A stretch of DNA of 64,000 nucleotides, taken from positions 5,781 to 69,780 of the IMG/VR virus record IMGVR_UViG_3300035562_000069; one strand, 5' to 3'. Numbering within the stretch: position 1 is the stretch's first letter; every line of letters begins with the position of its first letter. Below are positions 32,266-39,518 of the stretch, in pieces. The notes beneath the pieces are model-generated. The model was not told where the DNA came from. It searched no databases and was given only the letters and a program-made list of their open reading frames with translations. Position numbers and translations under genes: made by a program. This DNA is from a virus.

Positions 32266-32269
32266 TGAT

Positions 32270-32503
32270 CTATTTGGCATCTTGTTCTTCATCTTCGGTC
32301 AATTTAACTTCTTTTTCGTTAATTTCTATCGATGCCTCATGCTGACCACAAATTGGCAAGTCGTCCAATAGAGGTAATATCCCTCTTTGTTGATATAAAT
32401 GAGGGTCAAAGGCCATTTGATTCCCTGAAATATCTTCAACAACCGTGTCAACAATTTTGCCATCCGAAAGCAATTTTTTGCATATACCTTTGTAATTTAC
32501 CAT
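32270..32503 (-). CDS. Hypothetical acidic 77-aa protein between Q-like gene and late promoter
   Basis: GAGG RBS before ATG at 32503; AT-rich. Confidence 0.55.
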   Translation of the reverse strand: MVNYKGICKKLLSDGKIVDTVVEDISGNQMAFDPHLYQQRGILPLLDDLPICGQHEASIEINEKEVKLTEDEEQDAK

Positions 32504-32543
32504 CGTCCTCTTATTCCTTTTCATTTAGTTTATTGGCAGATTT

Positions 32544-33356
32544 TCAATAATTGACTTCTTCAATTAATCGATTAGATAACAACGTAGTCGCCAAAGACTC
32601 TTCCACATACAGCCAATCCATGCACTGCTTAACCAGGTGTGAATACTGGCTTACCCAGTCACCCGGCTCAACCGCAGCCCCTATGATACGCATCGACTTA
32701 CGCAGATGCTCCATACTGGCTGGGATTTTTCCCTTACCGCCACACTCTTCACACTCCACCGGGTGCGGCCTAACAGTGCGGCCAGTGCCTGAGCAGCGTG
32801 GGCAAATATTGGTTGTGGCTGCGTGGCGTTCAGACCAGGCGCGCAGTGCTGCACGTTCCCGCTCAATCCGCGTATTCAAATCGGTAATTTCTAATCCAGC
32901 CTCAACGTAAACAGTATCGCTGATCTGCGCCTGACATCGGCGCTTGTCTAAACCCTTAATCTCAGACTGCAACGCCTCAATGTTTTTTCGGGCTTGGGCG
33001 GTACGTGGGCCATACCTGCGGAATAATGATGCGAGATGCGCCACTTGTGCCGGCAGGTTACGCTCAAGCACAATACTGAGGGCTAACTGGCATGCTGCTG
33101 CCGCACGATCAGGATGCGGGCGCTGATGTACCCATTCATTGATAGCTGCTCGTAGCCGCTGCTCTGCTTTGAAATCGTTACGGTACTTCGTCATCAGCAG
33201 ATCGAGGCCAACGGAATACTGCTGCTGCGCGGCTGCGAATGCTCCGAGAATTTGCTCCCTGGTCAGGGAAGAGCGGCCACGGCCTACATTCAATGATTCC
33301 GCGCTTACACAGCGCGGATCGTGCATTTTTATGAGTTGTTCTATTGCATTGGTCAT
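32544..33356 (-). CDS. Q-like late antiterminator with CxxC-x-CxxC zinc finger (TIGR02642-like)
   Basis: CPRCSGTG...CEECGGKG; located immediately upstream of late promoter and lysis genes. Confidence 0.75.
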   Translation of the reverse strand: MTNAIEQLIKMHDPRCVSAESLNVGRGRSSLTREQILGAFAAAQQQYSVGLDLLMTKYRNDFKAEQRLRAAINEWVHQRPHPDRAAAACQLALSIVLERNLPAQVAHLASLFRRYGPRTAQARKNIEALQSEIKGLDKRRCQAQISDTVYVEAGLEITDLNTRIERERAALRAWSERHAATTNICPRCSGTGRTVRPHPVECEECGGKGKIPASMEHLRKSMRIIGAAVEPGDWVSQYSHLVKQCMDWLYVEESLATTLLSNRLIEEVNY

Positions 33357-33367: not shown

Positions 33368-33484
33368 GTAATTAATTGGCAGAACTGATTTTATAGCGTC
33401 TTTATTATAAAACAACCAAAATACAATATACTCCTAATAATCCCGTGTCATAGGCTTTATACTCCAATTTATTTACCTTTGATA

Positions 33485-35965
33485 TCACATTCCATACTTA
33501 AGAAAAACTCCATTTGTCCGGTTAGACTGATATCCTATCAAGTTCTCATAAGAGTCATAACCTTGACACTCATCCATAACAATAATCTCAACCAAAGGGC
33601 ATCCATGAAATTTGATATTTAGTTCTTTATGAAGAGCTTTCAACGCCTGGGAAAACTTTTCCTTTTGATTAGTATCCTTGCATATACTCTCAAAAATCAA
33701 GTATGCAACATCAGGTTCTATCCTCAAAACTTTTTCTTCAAACTTACTTCGATCGTTTTCGCTTTCTATAAATGCAGCGGCTGTCCCCTTAACTTCAGAA
33801 ATTATTAAATCGCCATCAATAATAGCTACAATGTCAATTTCTTGATAGTCATTCTTGTCAGATGACGAATGGAGATTAACTTCAGGAATGTAAACAGATT
33901 GCTTGCTTTTTGACTTCCTCAATAATAATGATACTGCGGCAATAACTGATAATCCATTATGCTCAGCCAAACATCTTAAAACAAATGGTGTAAATGCATA
34001 ACGCCATATCATATCTATTGGTGTGATATATTCCGCTGCACAAACATCACATTCATTCACTAATTTAAGACCATCTAAAACACGTCTATTTGAATTGCCA
34101 CAGTACTCACACCTTACAATATAAACCTGTTCAATAAAGCCAATTTTCACCATATACTCAATTACATCCAGCAAACTGGCACAGAGTAATTCTTTTGCTT
34201 TTCCAATATTTGTAATGTATTCGTCATCTATTACCCCATCAATATTTTTTCCTGGAATCTGCCTTATTTTTGTCTGAAGAGCTACTAACTCATAACCATT
34301 TACACTTTGTTCTCTTAATAAACCTCTAATGAAAACATTGTTAATGATAGATGATGCTTCATATATATTTGAAAACTTCGATACAACCCCTCTGTGCTGT
34401 TGGCCTTTATCCGAAATATTTATATATTCGTATTTATTTTTATCCTTACAAAATTTCCTATAATCATAATAACCTTTGTCATGACACATTAGTAATTTGA
34501 AAACATCCTCATCAGACGGGGACATCAATTGGAGATACTTGTCTTGTTTATTGTTATTACTTCTATACATACCAACAATATTTTCAGAACTTAGAATTGA
34601 GAGCGAGCGGTGTTTGTTTATTTTTGCCGGTTTTTTTGTAAATAACTCAGTGACAACATGCCTACGACATAGCTCCCAATAGTTATTCGTATTGACATAT
34701 AGACTATCATTTTGATAGCGCTCTATAAAAACATCAATAATCCACTCGCCACTCATTAAAAATTGGTGTTCATAATTTATATATGAGAAGTGCTCCGGCC
34801 CCTGCAGCTTAAATTTAGAATTTTTATTAATAGTATTTTCTTGTTGATCTGGCTTTCCTAAAAAACCGTATGGGTGTCGTCCGTCTAGATTAGGTAATGA
34901 TAGTTCATCAGTTTTTCTTGCTAGCTTTATTTCTACATTAGTAAATTGCTTTATTTTCAATATAAATTGCATGCAGTCATCATGCGTCAATGAAGATGTT
35001 CTTATTTCGACACACCCGCTTTGCGATCCATAGTTATATACATTTTTTTCTAAAAACCCACCAAGACTCTTACAAAAATCCTCATCACATGCAACCAATT
35101 TATCGATAATCATTTCAGATATACGCTCGGAACCCGAATAAAATGCCCCATCTTCAGAAATCATCCTTCTATTCCAGAAGTTTATTTTATCCAATGGAGA
35201 TGAACCAAGGTATAATTGGAATCTTACATTCCCAGCGGAACGTTTTTCTTTCGGATGTGAAATGTTTCCAGCATGGATTTTTGACAACAAAGAGAATGTT
35301 AATACTTCATCATTAGTTATAGCATCAACTATGCCCGCGATAGAATTTACTCTAAAATCACCTACATTCATATTTTCAGGAGTTTTTTCATCACAATAAC
35401 AAACCGTTTTAAACACACCATTTATCTTATATGTAAATGCTTCTACATCATGTCTAAACCCAAAGTTATCAGGTACAAAGTCTTTATGTTTTACATTGCC
35501 CTGTTGTGTGAGTAAAATTTTCTCCCCATCAGCATTTAATTTTCTTGCATATGGACTTTTAATTGTTGACAATGATTTAACTGGCTTATAGCGCACTAGC
35601 CTATTGGGGATGAAGCTACCATTTTCCCTCTCAAAACTATGATACCAAAACTCAATTGGCATTGTTATTTTATGCAGTTCCTCAATATCTTCCTGATTTA
35701 ATTTCACATATGAATAAATAAAATCAACTTCATAGTCATGTAACCAATCTAAGTATTTATCATTTAAAACCTTGCGCTTCTCATAGGGTATCAGTAATGT
35801 ATTTATACCTCCCCAACGGCTATAACACTCTTCAAATACTTTATTTATAATATTGCACGAAACCTCATCTTCATCAATAGGGATTAAATACGCAACTTTA
35901 ATAGGTCGGTTCCACAAGTCAACATCGATGCTCTTAGGAAGTTGCTCTAAATTATTTTCTTTCAT
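33485..35965 (-). CDS. 826-aa AT-rich protein with C-terminal Zn ribbon and PD-(D/E)xK nuclease-like motif
   Basis: CEYC...CDVC; QEIDIVAIIDGDLIISEVKG; N-terminal RPIKVAYLIP...WGG; ATGA-coupled to upstream gene. Confidence 0.7.
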   Translation of the reverse strand: MKENNLEQLPKSIDVDLWNRPIKVAYLIPIDEDEVSCNIINKVFEECYSRWGGINTLLIPYEKRKVLNDKYLDWLHDYEVDFIYSYVKLNQEDIEELHKITMPIEFWYHSFERENGSFIPNRLVRYKPVKSLSTIKSPYARKLNADGEKILLTQQGNVKHKDFVPDNFGFRHDVEAFTYKINGVFKTVCYCDEKTPENMNVGDFRVNSIAGIVDAITNDEVLTFSLLSKIHAGNISHPKEKRSAGNVRFQLYLGSSPLDKINFWNRRMISEDGAFYSGSERISEMIIDKLVACDEDFCKSLGGFLEKNVYNYGSQSGCVEIRTSSLTHDDCMQFILKIKQFTNVEIKLARKTDELSLPNLDGRHPYGFLGKPDQQENTINKNSKFKLQGPEHFSYINYEHQFLMSGEWIIDVFIERYQNDSLYVNTNNYWELCRRHVVTELFTKKPAKINKHRSLSILSSENIVGMYRSNNNKQDKYLQLMSPSDEDVFKLLMCHDKGYYDYRKFCKDKNKYEYINISDKGQQHRGVVSKFSNIYEASSIINNVFIRGLLREQSVNGYELVALQTKIRQIPGKNIDGVIDDEYITNIGKAKELLCASLLDVIEYMVKIGFIEQVYIVRCEYCGNSNRRVLDGLKLVNECDVCAAEYITPIDMIWRYAFTPFVLRCLAEHNGLSVIAAVSLLLRKSKSKQSVYIPEVNLHSSSDKNDYQEIDIVAIIDGDLIISEVKGTAAAFIESENDRSKFEEKVLRIEPDVAYLIFESICKDTNQKEKFSQALKALHKELNIKFHGCPLVEIIVMDECQGYDSYENLIGYQSNRTNGVFLKYGM

Positions 35966-37749
35966 TTCACTACCGCCCTATAGCTTATTGGTCTAAGGTC
36001 GAATAAACTTTCAGCCCCCCCCATTTTAATGTACATGCTGCAGCTATTTTCTATAAAATCAAGGTCATAGACACGATACAAAAAATATCTTGCTGCATTA
36101 TCAGCTGAAACGTTAACTTCATTTGATGATATATAAAACGGCGTGTATAAACTACCACGAGTTGTTTTCACTTCTATCAGTATAGAGTTCCCAGATTCAT
36201 CAAATGATTTAATATCATATCCTGCTGAACAATCCCTAAGAGATACTCTCTCTATTTTTGACGCAAGGTCAGGCCGACCTAAACTCAATAATCTCTCTCG
36301 TTCATAATTCATTACTAATTGCTCGCCTTGATCCCCAAGCGTACGGTTCCTTTCATCTGCAGCGGCCCAATCAGGTTGTTGTAAGATTTTAGTTGATTTA
36401 TTATTTTTTTTAACAACTTTAGATTTATTTTCTTCGTTAGGAAAATCAACCACTCTAATTTTAAATGCATCAACATCAAATTCATCAACAAATCCATCAT
36501 TTTTCAGAGCATTTAAAGCGGGAGCTATCTGTAATGAGTTTTTTAATTTAAAGGCTGATTGGCTACTCAGCAACCTCCACGTAAAACGAACTGGATTTGT
36601 TGAATTTTCAACAACCGAATCGTACGCCAACAACCCCAAATAACTATAATTTGATTTTTCTTCGCACCTTAAAAAAAGATGTATATTGCTTGTATTGTGA
36701 TCATGCGACTTTAACCTTTGAACAAAATCACTCTCCGCACTCATTTGTTTCTGTGTTTCCCAATGCAACTGACCTTCGTCGGTAAGTGCATCTTTATATG
36801 GATTGCCAGCATGCGGTTTTTCAATAGTAACAATGAATACTAGATCGTTCGTTTTATTTTTAAGTCTGATTATACCAGAGATACCCCAGCGCCCAGCCCC
36901 TACGGTAAATTTAGAACCAGGCTCAAATAACTGACAAATCCCCTCACGATCATATTTATTTAGTAAAATTGGCTTTAAGTTACCTTTCGACTTAGGTTCA
37001 ATATAAAATCCGTTTGACTTTAAAATTTCAAAACACTCACTATCTTCGCCGCCAGAAAACTCATCTGAAATTAGAAGTCTATTAATTATAGTTTTCGCAG
37101 CGATACCAAATATAAATTTTGGAGGGTAACGGTTTCCTTCATAAACTAAATCGTAAGTTGTCGAGTGCCGATAGCAGTAGCGCCATGGTTCGTATTGGCT
37201 ATAGTCCCTAATGGCTTCTCTAATATCCCTTGAGCTAAGCTCACGCATTAGTTCCTTTACATCATGGACCCTACCACTGGGGCCTTTATTAATGTCTACA
37301 AAACCATTACCGTCAAAGTATATACTAGCTTTTGACATTAAAAATGATGCCATATCAAAATCAATTTTCGATATGTATGCTCCTTGCTGAGGTACACCAT
37401 TTTTGTTTATAGGTGATAAATAATCACGTTTTATTGCAACCAGATGCTTTATATGTTCTTTAACATCAACCACTTTATTTAGCGGTTCAAACTTCACCTT
37501 TACTTCAAAATGTTCACTACCTTTCCAGTCAATAACTCTTGCTTCTTTTGACTTTACCACCCCAACGTTGGTTATTTTTTGGTCAAAGCATGCAAAAACT
37601 ATATCACCTTTTCTAGCTTGGCCTAGCATCTCGCGATAACCAAGCTTTGAATCACCGCCAATACCCGCAATAAGGATACCGTCACGAATTTCTATAACAT
37701 GACGTTCTTTATTATGATTAACCCAGAAAAACTGCTGTTCATTATCCAT
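35962..37749 (-). CDS. 595-aa multidomain nuclease: EVE/PUA-like, ScoMcrA-N-like, DUF3427-like and C-terminal DUF3883 (PD-(D/E)xK)
   Basis: FFWVNH...KGDIVF; STTYDLVYEGNRYPPK...FSGG; LHWETQ...IHLFLR...YSYLG; LGDQGEQLV...AGYDIKSF...IEVKTT...FYISSNE. Confidence 0.8.
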   Translation of the reverse strand: MDNEQQFFWVNHNKERHVIEIRDGILIAGIGGDSKLGYREMLGQARKGDIVFACFDQKITNVGVVKSKEARVIDWKGSEHFEVKVKFEPLNKVVDVKEHIKHLVAIKRDYLSPINKNGVPQQGAYISKIDFDMASFLMSKASIYFDGNGFVDINKGPSGRVHDVKELMRELSSRDIREAIRDYSQYEPWRYCYRHSTTYDLVYEGNRYPPKFIFGIAAKTIINRLLISDEFSGGEDSECFEILKSNGFYIEPKSKGNLKPILLNKYDREGICQLFEPGSKFTVGAGRWGISGIIRLKNKTNDLVFIVTIEKPHAGNPYKDALTDEGQLHWETQKQMSAESDFVQRLKSHDHNTSNIHLFLRCEEKSNYSYLGLLAYDSVVENSTNPVRFTWRLLSSQSAFKLKNSLQIAPALNALKNDGFVDEFDVDAFKIRVVDFPNEENKSKVVKKNNKSTKILQQPDWAAADERNRTLGDQGEQLVMNYERERLLSLGRPDLASKIERVSLRDCSAGYDIKSFDESGNSILIEVKTTRGSLYTPFYISSNEVNVSADNAARYFLYRVYDLDFIENSCSMYIKMGGAESLFDLRPISYRAVVK

Positions 37750-37782
37750 ACCAACACCCTATCCTTTGCGTGTTTTTAGGAT

Positions 37783-37811
37783 AAATTACCTTTTAGTTAC
37801 TGCAGTTTCAA
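37783..37811 (-). promoter_or_regulatory. Putative sigma70 promoter for the two-gene nuclease operon
   Basis: TTGAAA-17bp-TAATTT, 34 nt upstream of ATG 37749. Confidence 0.55.
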
Positions 37812-38208: not shown

Positions 38209-38856
38209 TCAATACTCCAAGAGCCGATTAACGGCCTGTTCCATCTCATGCTCATCGGCGAAATGCTGTTGCAGCGTCTCGTTCCAGATGATGCCTGCGA
38301 CACCGCTATAAACCTTGTCGAACTTCTCCTGACTCATATTGACGAAAGCAATGCTCCAGCGCTGCTTCAGCGTTCCACCATCCGGGTTCGCGGCCAGGTC
38401 ATAGAAACCGGCCTTTACCATGACGTGATTGAGGTAAGCTTCCGTCGTTTTCACAGCTTCGGCGTCAAAACGCCGCTGACGTTGCGCAGCAACGCGCTGC
38501 AGCACACTGTCGGCGATCAGCTTTGTGATGTTGTCATACAGCAGCGGATCGCCAGCCTGCGCCGCCAGCGTCTTCGCTACCTCATGCGCAATCCACTTTT
38601 CTGGATCGCTAACGAACGTCCAATCTGGCTCCCAATACGAAAAGCCCAACTCCAGCAGCTTCCAGAATTTGCGGTGGTGCTTCAGGTTCCGGCGGTCGCC
38701 GATCGGTCGCATGGCGATAGGAGTGCCCGTAGGCACCCCTTTCATCGTGTCCCTGTCGTGGTCGGTCGCGTATTTGATACCGCCACCTGGTAGCAGCACC
38801 CCCAACGCTTCCGTCTTATGCTTTCTCGAGGACTTAGTTCGCGGCGCGGCTGTCAT
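38209..38856 (-). CDS. DUF1367-family (NinB-like) protein
   Basis: RNLKHHRKFWKLL...SIAFVNMSQEKFDKVY. Confidence 0.8.
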   Translation of the reverse strand: MTAAPRTKSSRKHKTEALGVLLPGGGIKYATDHDRDTMKGVPTGTPIAMRPIGDRRNLKHHRKFWKLLELGFSYWEPDWTFVSDPEKWIAHEVAKTLAAQAGDPLLYDNITKLIADSVLQRVAAQRQRRFDAEAVKTTEAYLNHVMVKAGFYDLAANPDGGTLKQRWSIAFVNMSQEKFDKVYSGVAGIIWNETLQQHFADEHEMEQAVNRLLEY

Positions 38857-39518
38857 GCGACACTCCTATCAGCCAGGCGCTCAGCTTCACTGCGGATCTG
38901 CGCCAAGAATGATTCGCCATGAGCCATCAACTGATCACGACTGACATAACTCTGAGCTGGACCGCGCCAAGTTTTATCAAACACCGCGATAGCTGCGCCA
39001 AAGCCGGCACTGCTGGCCTCTTGTTTTGCATCTGCCGGCCGATACCACAACGGCACATCAAAACCGATACGGCCACGAATGAACGCGACATGATCTGCAT
39101 CCTCTGGCCACCAGACTTCCGCTGTCGCTGATTTGATGAGAAACACATAACGCCCACCGAGATCCCGCATCGTCATGGTTTGGCGCATGATGTGCCGCAT
39201 GCCGGTGATATATTCACCTTCATACTGCTTCGCCGTGCTGTACGGCGGGTTACCAAAAGCCGCGCCATTCAGCTCTTTGACTCGGACAGACCAGTCCTGA
39301 ATCAGTGCATTATCTTCGGCTGTATAGAACGCCGCGCACTTGCTGTTTTCGCCGTCGCTGAACAGATCGAGAACAAAGGGACCAAACATCGCATTTATGC
39401 CCCAAAATAGCTTATCCGGCGTACGCCATTGGTCACCGATTTCTTTCAGCTCGTGAGCTGGAGCCTGTCTCAGCGCGGTTAGGGACCGAACGTAAGAGGA
39501 ATTTGAGAAGTCGATCAT
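38853..39518 (-). CDS. Phage N6-adenine DNA methyltransferase (phage Dam family)
   Basis: DQWRTP...FVLDLF...NPPYS catalytic motif. Confidence 0.9.
   Translation of the reverse strand: MIDFSNSSYVRSLTALRQAPAHELKEIGDQWRTPDKLFWGINAMFGPFVLDLFSDGENSKCAAFYTAEDNALIQDWSVRVKELNGAAFGNPPYSTAKQYEGEYITGMRHIMRQTMTMRDLGGRYVFLIKSATAEVWWPEDADHVAFIRGRIGFDVPLWYRPADAKQEASSAGFGAAIAVFDKTWRGPAQSYVSRDQLMAHGESFLAQIRSEAERLADRSVA

What the first reader, a model, noticed from the sequence alone, without database searches (positions are those of the whole stretch)
33485..37811. AT-rich two-gene nuclease operon inserted upstream of Q: candidate undescribed anti-phage system
Seen: 4.3 kb of markedly AT-rich DNA between nin and Q, with its own TTGAAA-17-TAATTT promoter and two ATGA-coupled genes (595 aa and 826 aa), both ending in PD-(D/E)xK-type motifs. 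I cannot match the pair to a named defence system. Established: lambdoid nin-Q intervals carry exchangeable cargo, and prophage morons are often defence genes. Inference: a sensor-nuclease plus effector pair expressed in the lysogen.
Basis: partly seen in the sequence, partly recalled or inferred. Interest (0 to 1): 0.8.

Follow-up and report, generated by a model that had tools for sequence, protein, structure and literature searches.

The report
Known restriction enzyme plus unknown nuclease
The AT-rich insert in this prophage is real, but it looks like two separable cargo genes rather than one new two-gene system: a relative of the characterised modified-cytosine restriction enzyme YenY4I, followed by a member of a large unnamed nuclease family that is found on its own everywhere else.

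Summary
Two overlapping (ATGA) minus-strand genes of 595 aa (A, 35962-37749) and 826 aa (B, 33485-35965) lie in about 34% GC DNA between the nin-like genes and a Q-like gene. Both end in conserved D...ExK nuclease motifs and both are under purifying selection.

- **Gene A is already described.** It is 52% identical over its full length to YenY4I (WP_077293998), a Type IV modification-dependent restriction enzyme tested by Lutz et al. 2019, and has the same EVE, DUF3427/SRA-like and DUF3883 nuclease layout.
- **Gene B is uncharacterised.** Its family has 626 clusters, no Pfam match and no PADLOC match. It combines a Rossmann-like N-terminal region, a zinc ribbon and a Can2/Card1-like PD-(D/E)xK nuclease.
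- **The pair is not a conserved system.**
  - A and B occur together only in one Serratia prophage lineage.
  - None of 24 other B loci (23 with usable flanks, none sharing a neighbour) encodes anything like A.
  - Yersinia carries A alone in the same slot.
  - A sister prophage about 90% identical has A followed by a KAP NTPase cassette instead of B.
- **The proposed promoter** is no better than chance in this AT-rich DNA.

The most likely reading is stacked, independent defence cargo. The scan's earlier notes on A and B concern this same stretch, not other DNA.

The parts
37783..37811 (-).
   Evidence: Read directly. The -10 hexamer matches at only 3 of 6 positions and is not listed by the consensus scan. 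Promoter-like sites in the region are not enriched over shuffled sequence. Function is unverified.
35962..37749 (-). Gene A, 595 aa: YenY4I-group Type IV modification-dependent restriction endonuclease
   Evidence: ORF. It is 52% identical over 603 aligned residues to YenY4I, WP_077293998. Pfam gives NOV_C 6e-17 and DUF3427 8e-14. dN/dS is 0.13-0.28.
37300..37737 (-). Gene A residues 5-150: EVE (PUA-superfamily) modified-base reader domain
36985..37242 (-). Gene A residues about 170-255: ScoMcrA N-terminal head-like domain
   Evidence: The profile search hits ScoMcrA (5zmm) residues 4-101 at E 2.5e-5. Homologues carry a precomputed PF26345 ScoMcrA_N assignment.
36526..36984 (-). Gene A residues 256-408: DUF3427 / SRA-like target-recognition domain
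35965..36363 (-). Gene A residues 463-595: NOV_C/DUF3883 PD-(D/E)xK nuclease domain
33485..35965 (-). Gene B, 826 aa: member of a large unnamed protein family
   Evidence: ORF. No Pfam, NCBIfam, PHROG or PADLOC family passes threshold. The family has 626 clusters (at 50% identity) with E<=1e-3 and 76 with E<=1e-30. dN/dS is 0.15-0.18.
34886..35932 (-). Gene B residues about 12-360: tandem Rossmann-like alpha/beta lobes, function unknown (proposed sensor or regulatory region)
33986..34135 (-). Gene B residues about 611-660: four-cysteine zinc ribbon (C619, C622, C639, C642)
   Evidence: All four cysteines are invariant in 60 homologues. The only sequence resemblance is a sub-threshold one to RanBP2/NZF-type fingers, E 0.14.
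33551..33985 (-). Gene B residues about 661-805: PD-(D/E)xK nuclease domain with conserved E695, D711, E724 and K726
33394..36102 (-). Exchangeable segment: the last ~46 codons of A, all of B and about 90 nt downstream
   Evidence: blastn against sister prophage L035 is collinear at about 90.6% from 42000 to 36103, breaks, and resumes at 33393. L035 carries a 282-aa gene and a KAP NTPase in this segment instead. In Yersinia, homology resumes at about 33396 directly after A.

Best explanation
The 4.3-kb AT-rich insert is accessory cargo in a recombination hotspot between the nin-like genes and the Q-like gene of a Serratia-type P22-like/lambdoid prophage. It holds two separable modules that are transcribed together, not one obligate two-gene system.

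Gene A is a YenY4I-group Type IV modification-dependent restriction endonuclease. Its EVE domain, ScoMcrA-head-like domain and DUF3427/SRA-like domain read modified cytosine (5mC or 5hmC) in incoming DNA. Its C-terminal DUF3883/NOV_C PD-(D/E)xK domain cuts that DNA. The domain layout and the homology are shown here. The specificity is inferred from assays on YenY4I at 52% identity.

Gene B is an autonomous single-polypeptide nuclease from a large unnamed family. I infer that its ~600-residue N-terminal part (three Rossmann-like lobes, then a beta-rich and helical region) senses or regulates, that the invariant zinc ribbon helps bind nucleic acid, and that the Can2/Card1-like PD-(D/E)xK domain is the effector. 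That would make it a second, independent anti-phage or anti-mobile-element layer. The fold resemblance and the conserved catalytic residues are shown. The sensing role and the defence function are inferred.
For: Gene A:
- It is 52% identical over its full length to YenY4I, WP_077293998.
- Lutz et al. 2019 (PMC6765204) describe the same three-part layout for YenY4I, prophage-borne in Yersinia, with homologues of 595-601 aa. They report 5mC/5hmC-dependent cleavage in Mn2+, weak restriction of T4gt and mild toxicity in Dcm+ cells.

Separability of A and B:
- The pair was found only in one prophage backbone, at 83-93% identity and always in the same slot.
- None of the 24 other loci carrying B homologues (about 22-32% identity; Betaproteobacteria, Xanthomonadales, Legionella, Desulfobacterota, Nitrospirota and others) encodes anything similar to A. 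In the 23 with usable flanks, no neighbouring gene is shared among more than 3 loci.
- Yersinia carries A alone in the same slot.
- Sister prophage L035 shares the backbone at about 90.6% nucleotide identity but has A followed by a 282-aa gene and a KAP NTPase. The NTPase matches PADLOC PDC-S20 at 1.5e-82.
- One Serratia assembly (L011) has A frameshifted while B is intact.

Gene B as a probable active nuclease and probable defence cargo:
- D711, E724 and the four cysteines are invariant in 60 homologues.
- dN/dS is 0.15-0.18.
- Neighbours of its homologues include integrases, a Tn3 transposase, AbiEii, TIR, restriction-modification methyltransferases, and PDC-S05 and PDC-S23 matches.
- In most loci its GC content is lower than that of the flanks.
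Against: - The ATGA overlap couples translation of B to A, and this overlap is conserved throughout the Serratia lineage.
- The left recombination breakpoint lies inside the 3' end of A. The last ~46 residues of A therefore travel with whichever downstream cargo is present. That could reflect a functional interface rather than mere homology-driven exchange.
- YenY4I is weak on its own in vitro. Lutz et al. proposed that DUF3427-DUF3883 enzymes may need partner NTPases.
- No experiment shows that B defends against anything, and B matches no PADLOC v2 model.
- The defence enrichment of B's neighbourhoods was judged qualitatively, not scored.
- The B model is only moderately confident (pLDDT 69.7), and its N-terminal fold matches are at common-arrangement level.
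Confidence: 0.6

Rival explanations
1. A and B form a functional two-gene system in this lineage. A reads modified DNA, and B acts either as a helper or second effector that strengthens the weak YenY4I-type nuclease, or as a guard that fires when A is blocked by a phage anti-restriction protein. The KAP NTPase cassette in the sister prophage would then be an alternative partner.
For: - The ATGA overlap is conserved in all Serratia copies.
- The two genes share composition.
- The exchange breakpoint lies inside the 3' end of A, so A's C-terminal tail co-varies with the downstream cargo.
- YenY4I alone has low activity, and NTPase partners have been proposed for this enzyme class.
Against: - B homologues are solitary in the 23 other loci with usable flanks, and none of the 24 other loci has any A-like gene.
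- A is solitary in Yersinia and Cupriavidus.
- In L011, A is broken but B is kept intact.
- YenY4I restricts T4gt, weakly, without any partner.
Confidence: 0.2
2. Gene B is not an immunity gene. It would be a nuclease used by mobile elements for their own purposes, such as recombination or replication processing, degrading host or competitor DNA, or selfish addiction. It would sit in the prophage hotspot only because that slot tolerates cargo.
For: - The nin regions of lambdoid phages naturally carry nucleases and recombination genes. YbcO and a NinB-like gene lie just upstream.
- B homologues lie beside conjugation genes (L013), integrases and transposases.
- No known defence model matches B.
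Against: - B is absent from 50,697 deposited phage genomes by tblastn, so it is not a core phage function.
- It is exchanged with a PDC-S20/PifA-like KAP NTPase cassette.
- Some homologues have TIR, AbiEii or restriction-modification neighbours.
- It sits directly behind a restriction enzyme.
Confidence: 0.15
3. One or both ORFs are chance open frames in AT-rich DNA, or decaying pseudogenes.
For: AT-rich DNA has few G+C-rich codons, and no expression data exist.
Against: - Chance ORFs of 595 and 826 codons are very unlikely in stop-rich AT-rich DNA.
- dN/dS is 0.13-0.28.
- Hundreds of homologues share conserved catalytic residues.
Confidence: 0.01

Closest known systems
YenY4I (REBASE name; WP_077293998), a Type IV modification-dependent restriction endonuclease of Yersinia (Lutz et al. 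2019, NAR 47:9761, PMC6765204)
   Same: Gene A shares 52% identity over the whole length. It has a similar length (595 against 601 aa), the same order of EVE/PUA-like, DUF3427 and DUF3883 PD-(D/E)xK domains, and a prophage location next to a phage adenine methylase, in the same slot upstream of the Q-like gene.
   Different: At 48% sequence divergence, its specificity for 5mC, 5hmC or another modification is untested. Here it is followed by an overlapping second gene, whereas YenY4I stands alone.
SauUSI, VcaM4I/TspA15I and ScoMcrA (Type IV restriction enzymes with solved structures)
   Different: The nuclease differs. Gene A has a PD-(D/E)xK domain of the NOV_C type, not a PLD nuclease with helicase (SauUSI) or an HNH nuclease (VcaM4I, ScoMcrA). 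It has no sulphur-binding domain match.
PD-T4-1 (Vassallo et al. 2022), PADLOC candidate PDC-S36 and Tiamat TmtA
   Same: They share the NOV_C/DUF3883 nuclease domain with gene A: PDC-S36 5e-44, PD-T4-1 6e-19, TmtA 2e-14.
   Different: Only the C-terminal ~170 residues match. The N-terminal parts of those models are not matched, and they lack the EVE and DUF3427 readers.
Can2 / Card1 / Can1 / Cdn1, the cyclic-oligoadenylate-activated CARF nucleases of type III CRISPR systems
   Different: No CARF domain was recognised in B. It has an inserted four-cysteine zinc ribbon and is about twice the length. No CRISPR or cyclase genes lie nearby, and there is no sequence-level match.
Prophage defence hotspots, where accessory 'moron' genes are exchanged at fixed positions of lambdoid and P2/P4-like prophages (general knowledge, not tested against a specific paper here)
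   Same: The flanks are fixed and the AT-rich cargo varies among otherwise about 90% identical prophages: A alone, A plus B, or A plus a 282-aa gene and a KAP NTPase.
   Different: The exchange is nested. A is the constant part, and its 3' end serves as the left recombination anchor for the downstream cargo.

Membership tests
YenY4I group of Type IV MDREs (gene A) | N-terminal PUA-superfamily domain of the TspA15I/VcaM4I (EVE) type | tested here: met
YenY4I group of Type IV MDREs (gene A) | [quoted passage not shown] | tested here: met
YenY4I group of Type IV MDREs (gene A) | C-terminal DUF3883/NOV_C PD-(D/E)xK domain with intact catalytic residues | tested here: met
   Pfam NOV_C 6.3e-17, above the curated cut-off. 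D512, E526 and K528 are invariant in 26 homologues.
YenY4I group of Type IV MDREs (gene A) | Full-length homology to YenY4I, with a size of 595-601 aa | tested here: met
   BLASTP against WP_077293998 (P0205) gives 315/603 identical, 52%, end to end.
YenY4I group of Type IV MDREs (gene A) | Cleavage or restriction that depends on 5mC/5hmC modification | not testable with these tools
   This is known only for YenY4I itself and needs enzyme and phage assays.
PD-T4-1 / PDC-S36 single-gene defence proteins (gene A) | Match over the whole model, not only the nuclease domain | tested here: not met
   Only model positions 218-374 of 383 (PD-T4-1) and 112-278 of 280 (PDC-S36) are matched, by gene A residues 424-593.
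Conserved two-gene defence system (A with B) | The two genes co-occur across divergent genomes | tested here: not met
   The pair occurs only in one prophage lineage. None of 24 other B loci has an A-like gene. Of 20 viral A-family loci, only the same lineage has B. A is alone in Yersinia and Cupriavidus.
CARF nucleases Can2/Card1 (gene B) | PD-(D/E)xK nuclease module of the Card1/DUF1887 type | tested here: inconclusive
CARF nucleases Can2/Card1 (gene B) | N-terminal CARF domain and association with type III CRISPR or cyclic-oligoadenylate signalling | tested here: not met
   No CARF match appeared in Pfam or the fold searches. No CRISPR or cyclase genes were seen in the window or among the neighbours surveyed at 23 homologue loci.
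NERD domain proteins, Pfam PF08378 (gene B) | Score above Pfam's gathering threshold | tested here: not met
   15.0 bits against a cut-off of 22.1, E 0.036.
Known defence systems in PADLOC-DB v2.0.0 (gene B) | Any model match | tested here: not met
   No families matched at E<=1. Systems named after 2023 could not be checked.

The most novel reading that the evidence does not exclude
Gene B founds a new, widespread single-gene immunity family. In this reading its ~600-residue N-terminal region, which has no sequence-recognisable relatives and is built on a three-lobed Rossmann-like core, is a new kind of infection sensor. That sensor would gate a zinc-ribbon plus Can2-like nuclease. In the more daring version, B in this prophage guards the YenY4I-type restriction enzyme to which it is translationally coupled.
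Probability: 0.35. Interest if true: 0.6.

Novelty: new variant of a known kind. Interest (0 to 1): 0.42.

Why it matters
- **The two-gene claim is corrected.** What looked like an undescribed two-gene system is half known. Gene A can be annotated as a YenY4I-like Type IV restriction enzyme instead of 'DUF3427 protein'.
- **A tractable unknown is isolated.** Gene B belongs to a family of several hundred sequence clusters across bacteria, plus at least one archaeal bin. It has no Pfam or PADLOC model. Its nuclease and zinc-ribbon residues are strongly conserved, and its context is that of mobile or defence cargo.
- **A natural experiment exists.** Three forms of the same slot are available for comparison: A alone, A plus B, and A plus a KAP NTPase cassette. 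These can show how prophages shuffle immunity genes, and whether weak Type IV enzymes such as YenY4I work alone or with partners.

Tried and rejected
- **DNA and protein searches of public collections.**
  - Megablast of the 4.5-kb region against complete E. coli genomes and deposited phages found nothing.
  - tblastn of B against deposited phages found nothing.
  - A found only distant DUF3427-NOV_C relatives in Vibrio and Listeria phages.
- **Relatives of the window's genome.** The Serratia and Yersinia loci are not in the held genomes, so no order-wide co-occurrence table could be made.
- **Complex prediction.** B with A residues 424-595 returned 'no answer' (score 0.00). This is not evidence either way.
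- **Expression.** The only full holder of the stretch is a soil metagenome DNA run, probably the source. No RNA runs exist.
- **Gene B against solved structures and annotation.**
  - Profiles of 11 and 60 sequences found nothing significant in PDB sequences.
  - Foldseek against PDB gave no hit at E<=0.001.
  - The Swiss-Prot AFDB search gave only weak IspH and ProA-like rows.
  - The ESM Atlas feature search gave no usable hit.
  - Pfam found nothing in 10 further family members.
- **Partners of distant B homologues.**
  - The 208-aa (L001) and 279-aa (L002) upstream ORFs have no Pfam family.
  - They are not shared between loci.
- **Literature.** A search for accessions of B homologues found no paper.


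Full report
**Observation**

Gene A runs 35962..37749 (595 aa) and gene B 33485..35965 (826 aa). They overlap in ATGA. GC drops to 0.31-0.38 across the insert, against 0.53-0.57 on both sides.

The flanks are those of a lambdoid/P22-like prophage:
- Upstream lie an RdgC-FtsK-gamma fusion, a Dam methyltransferase, a DUF1367/NinB-like gene and YbcO.
- Downstream lie a 270-aa protein with a weak Q-like antiterminator match, then holin, lysozyme and spanin genes.

The motif TTGAAA, 17 nt, TAATTT is present at 37811..37783. Its -10 hexamer matches the consensus at only three positions. Promoter-like sites in this AT-rich stretch are no more common than in shuffled sequence, 18 against 21.1 +/- 4.3, and no terminator follows B. 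The promoter, and expression in the lysogen, therefore remain untested. The only run holding the full stretch is a soil-metagenome DNA run, and no RNA run exists.

Both genes are real. dN/dS against relatives is 0.13-0.28 for A and 0.15-0.18 for B.

**Gene A is a described enzyme type**

Family and profile searches gave these matches:
- Pfam finds NOV_C (DUF3883) at residues 475-563 and DUF3427 at 261-393.
- A profile of 26 homologues hits the target-recognition domain of SauUSI (7clg, E 6.4e-9) and the head domain of ScoMcrA (5zmm, E 2.5e-5).

The AlphaFold model (pLDDT 77.5) resolves four parts:

| Residues | Domain | Best structural or sequence matches |
|---|---|---|
| ~170-255 | ScoMcrA-head-like | ScoMcrA head (5zmm), profile E 2.5e-5 |

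D512, E526 and K528 are invariant.

Lutz et al. 2019 (PMC6765204) describe exactly this layout as the YenY4I group, and report the following:
- The gene is prophage-borne in Yersinia, beside a phage adenine methylase.
- Cleavage depends on 5mC/5hmC, in Mn2+ and at high enzyme concentration.
- Restriction of T4gt is weak, and toxicity in Dcm+ cells is mild.

The cluster look-up shows that YenY4I's own accession, WP_077293998, sits in the cluster of my Yersinia hit. BLASTP of gene A against it gives 52% identity end to end. Gene A is therefore a new member of a known, assayed enzyme group. The PADLOC hits (PDC-S36, PD-T4-1, TmtA) cover only the shared nuclease domain.

**Gene B is uncharacterised**

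No Pfam, NCBIfam, PHROG or PADLOC model passes threshold. NERD reaches only E 0.036. Yet an exhaustive HMMER scan finds 626 clusters (at 50% identity) with E<=1e-3 and 76 with E<=1e-30, mostly 800-870 aa. Ten further members also lack any Pfam hit.

In a 60-sequence alignment the invariant residues are G53, D81, W264, N265, W430, four cysteines (C619, C622, C639, C642), D711 and E724. K726 is conserved in at least 90%.

The model (pLDDT 69.7, pTM 0.68) gave these matches:
- AFDB clusters named restriction endonuclease, Mrr, NERD, DUF1887 and 'REase associating with pPIWI_RE' also match.
- The N-terminal ~360 residues exist elsewhere as a stand-alone protein (TM 0.85).

**Is it a two-gene system?**

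- **Where the pair occurs.** All A-B pairs lie in one prophage backbone of Serratia marcescens or S. liquefaciens type, always in the same slot, at 83-93% identity.
- **B without A.**
  - I collected 24 other loci carrying B homologues, from betaproteobacteria, Xanthomonadales, Legionella, Desulfobacterota, Nitrospirota, a Bdellovibrionales bin and a Methanobacterium bin.
  - tblastn with A finds nothing in any of them.
  - All-against-all clustering of the neighbours in the 23 with usable flanks finds no gene shared by more than three loci.
- **What surrounds B elsewhere.** Neighbours include three integrases, a Tn3 transposase, RhuM, AbiEii, a TIR protein, restriction-modification methyltransferases, and PDC-S05 and PDC-S23 matches, alongside housekeeping genes.
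- **A without B.**
  - The Yersinia YenY4I locus has A alone in the homologous slot.
  - The shorter 460-aa relatives are also solitary.
- **A different cargo behind A.**
  - A viral contig, L035, shares the prophage backbone at about 90.6% nucleotide identity. It has A followed, after 10 nt, by a 282-aa gene with no family and a 512-aa KAP NTPase (Pfam 2.4e-37; PADLOC PDC-S20 1.5e-82).
  - The blastn map shows collinearity from 42000 down to 36103, a break, and resumption at 33393.
  - The exchanged unit is thus the last ~46 codons of A plus everything downstream to about 90 nt past B.
- **A broken, B intact.** One Serratia assembly has A frameshifted and B intact.

**Reading**

The simplest account is a nested cargo hotspot. 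A YenY4I-type Type IV enzyme is the constant element, and the position behind it accepts different independent modules, of which B is one. B stands alone everywhere else and keeps its catalytic and zinc-binding residues. I therefore read it as an autonomous nuclease with a large N-terminal regulatory or sensing region, most likely a second defence layer.

Three points keep a cooperative model alive, at about 0.2:
- The start of B is translationally coupled to A.
- The breakpoint lies inside A's C-terminus.
- YenY4I-class enzymes are weak in vitro, and Lutz et al. speculated that they need NTPase partners.

A complex prediction of B with A's nuclease domain gave no answer and is not used as evidence. 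A non-defence role for B, as a nuclease serving a mobile element, is possible at about 0.15. B's absence from deposited phage genomes and its swap with a PifA/QatA-like NTPase cassette argue against that.

**Novelty and verdict**

Gene A is a new member of a known kind. Gene B is an unnamed family whose effector is of a known kind and whose N-terminal region is unknown. The pair as a 'system' is not supported. Interest is moderate. The finding is worth a bench test because three natural forms of the slot exist and B's family is large and unannotated. It is not the undescribed two-gene system that was proposed.

Earlier notes of this scan on the same stretch (e1-5325242, three reader domains in A; e1-5325243, unassignable N-terminus ahead of the zinc ribbon and nuclease in B) agree with what I found. 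They concern this same DNA, not other genomes.

Noticed in passing
L035:7798-10223 (IMGVR_UViG_3300036828_000654): In a sister prophage the slot behind gene A holds a different AT-rich cassette. It has a 282-aa protein with no family, which contains an RNNIAH (R-x4-H, HEPN-like) motif, and a 512-aa KAP-family P-loop NTPase. The NTPase matches PADLOC PDC-S20 at 1.5e-82 and PifA/QatA weakly.
   Followed up: partly
window 32267-32596: A second small variable, AT-rich slot (GC about 0.40) lies between the Q-like gene and the holin. Homology to the Serratia prophages breaks here. They carry a 203-208 aa ORF, whereas the window has an 84-aa ORF (32270..32524) with no family match.
   Followed up: no
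L011:8219-10001: In one Serratia read-assembly, gene A is interrupted by frameshifts (tblastn pieces 1-441, 445-580 and 576-595) while gene B downstream is intact. This could be real decay or an assembly error.
   Followed up: no
L024:8001-11612; L029:8001-10076; L030:8001-10228: Some B-family genes are broken. In a Nitrospirota bin the gene is split by an insertion of about 1.1 kb. In two Legionella species it is in two or more ORF pieces.
   Followed up: no
window 38853-39518 (minus strand): A prophage-encoded Dam-family adenine methyltransferase (221 aa) lies 1.1 kb upstream of the Type IV enzyme. Lutz et al. noted the same for the YenY4I prophage. It is a backbone gene, not part of the AT-rich cargo.
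   Followed up: no
Only its C-terminal part (182-263) matches the Q-like antiterminator PHROG, at 1.9e-12, and it has a DnaJ-type CxxCxGxG zinc-finger match. The Q assignment is plausible but weak.
   Followed up: partly
L014:2750-3694: A B-family homologue in a short metagenomic contig is followed directly, after about 65-85 nt on the same strand, by a 308-aa TIR-domain protein.
   Followed up: no
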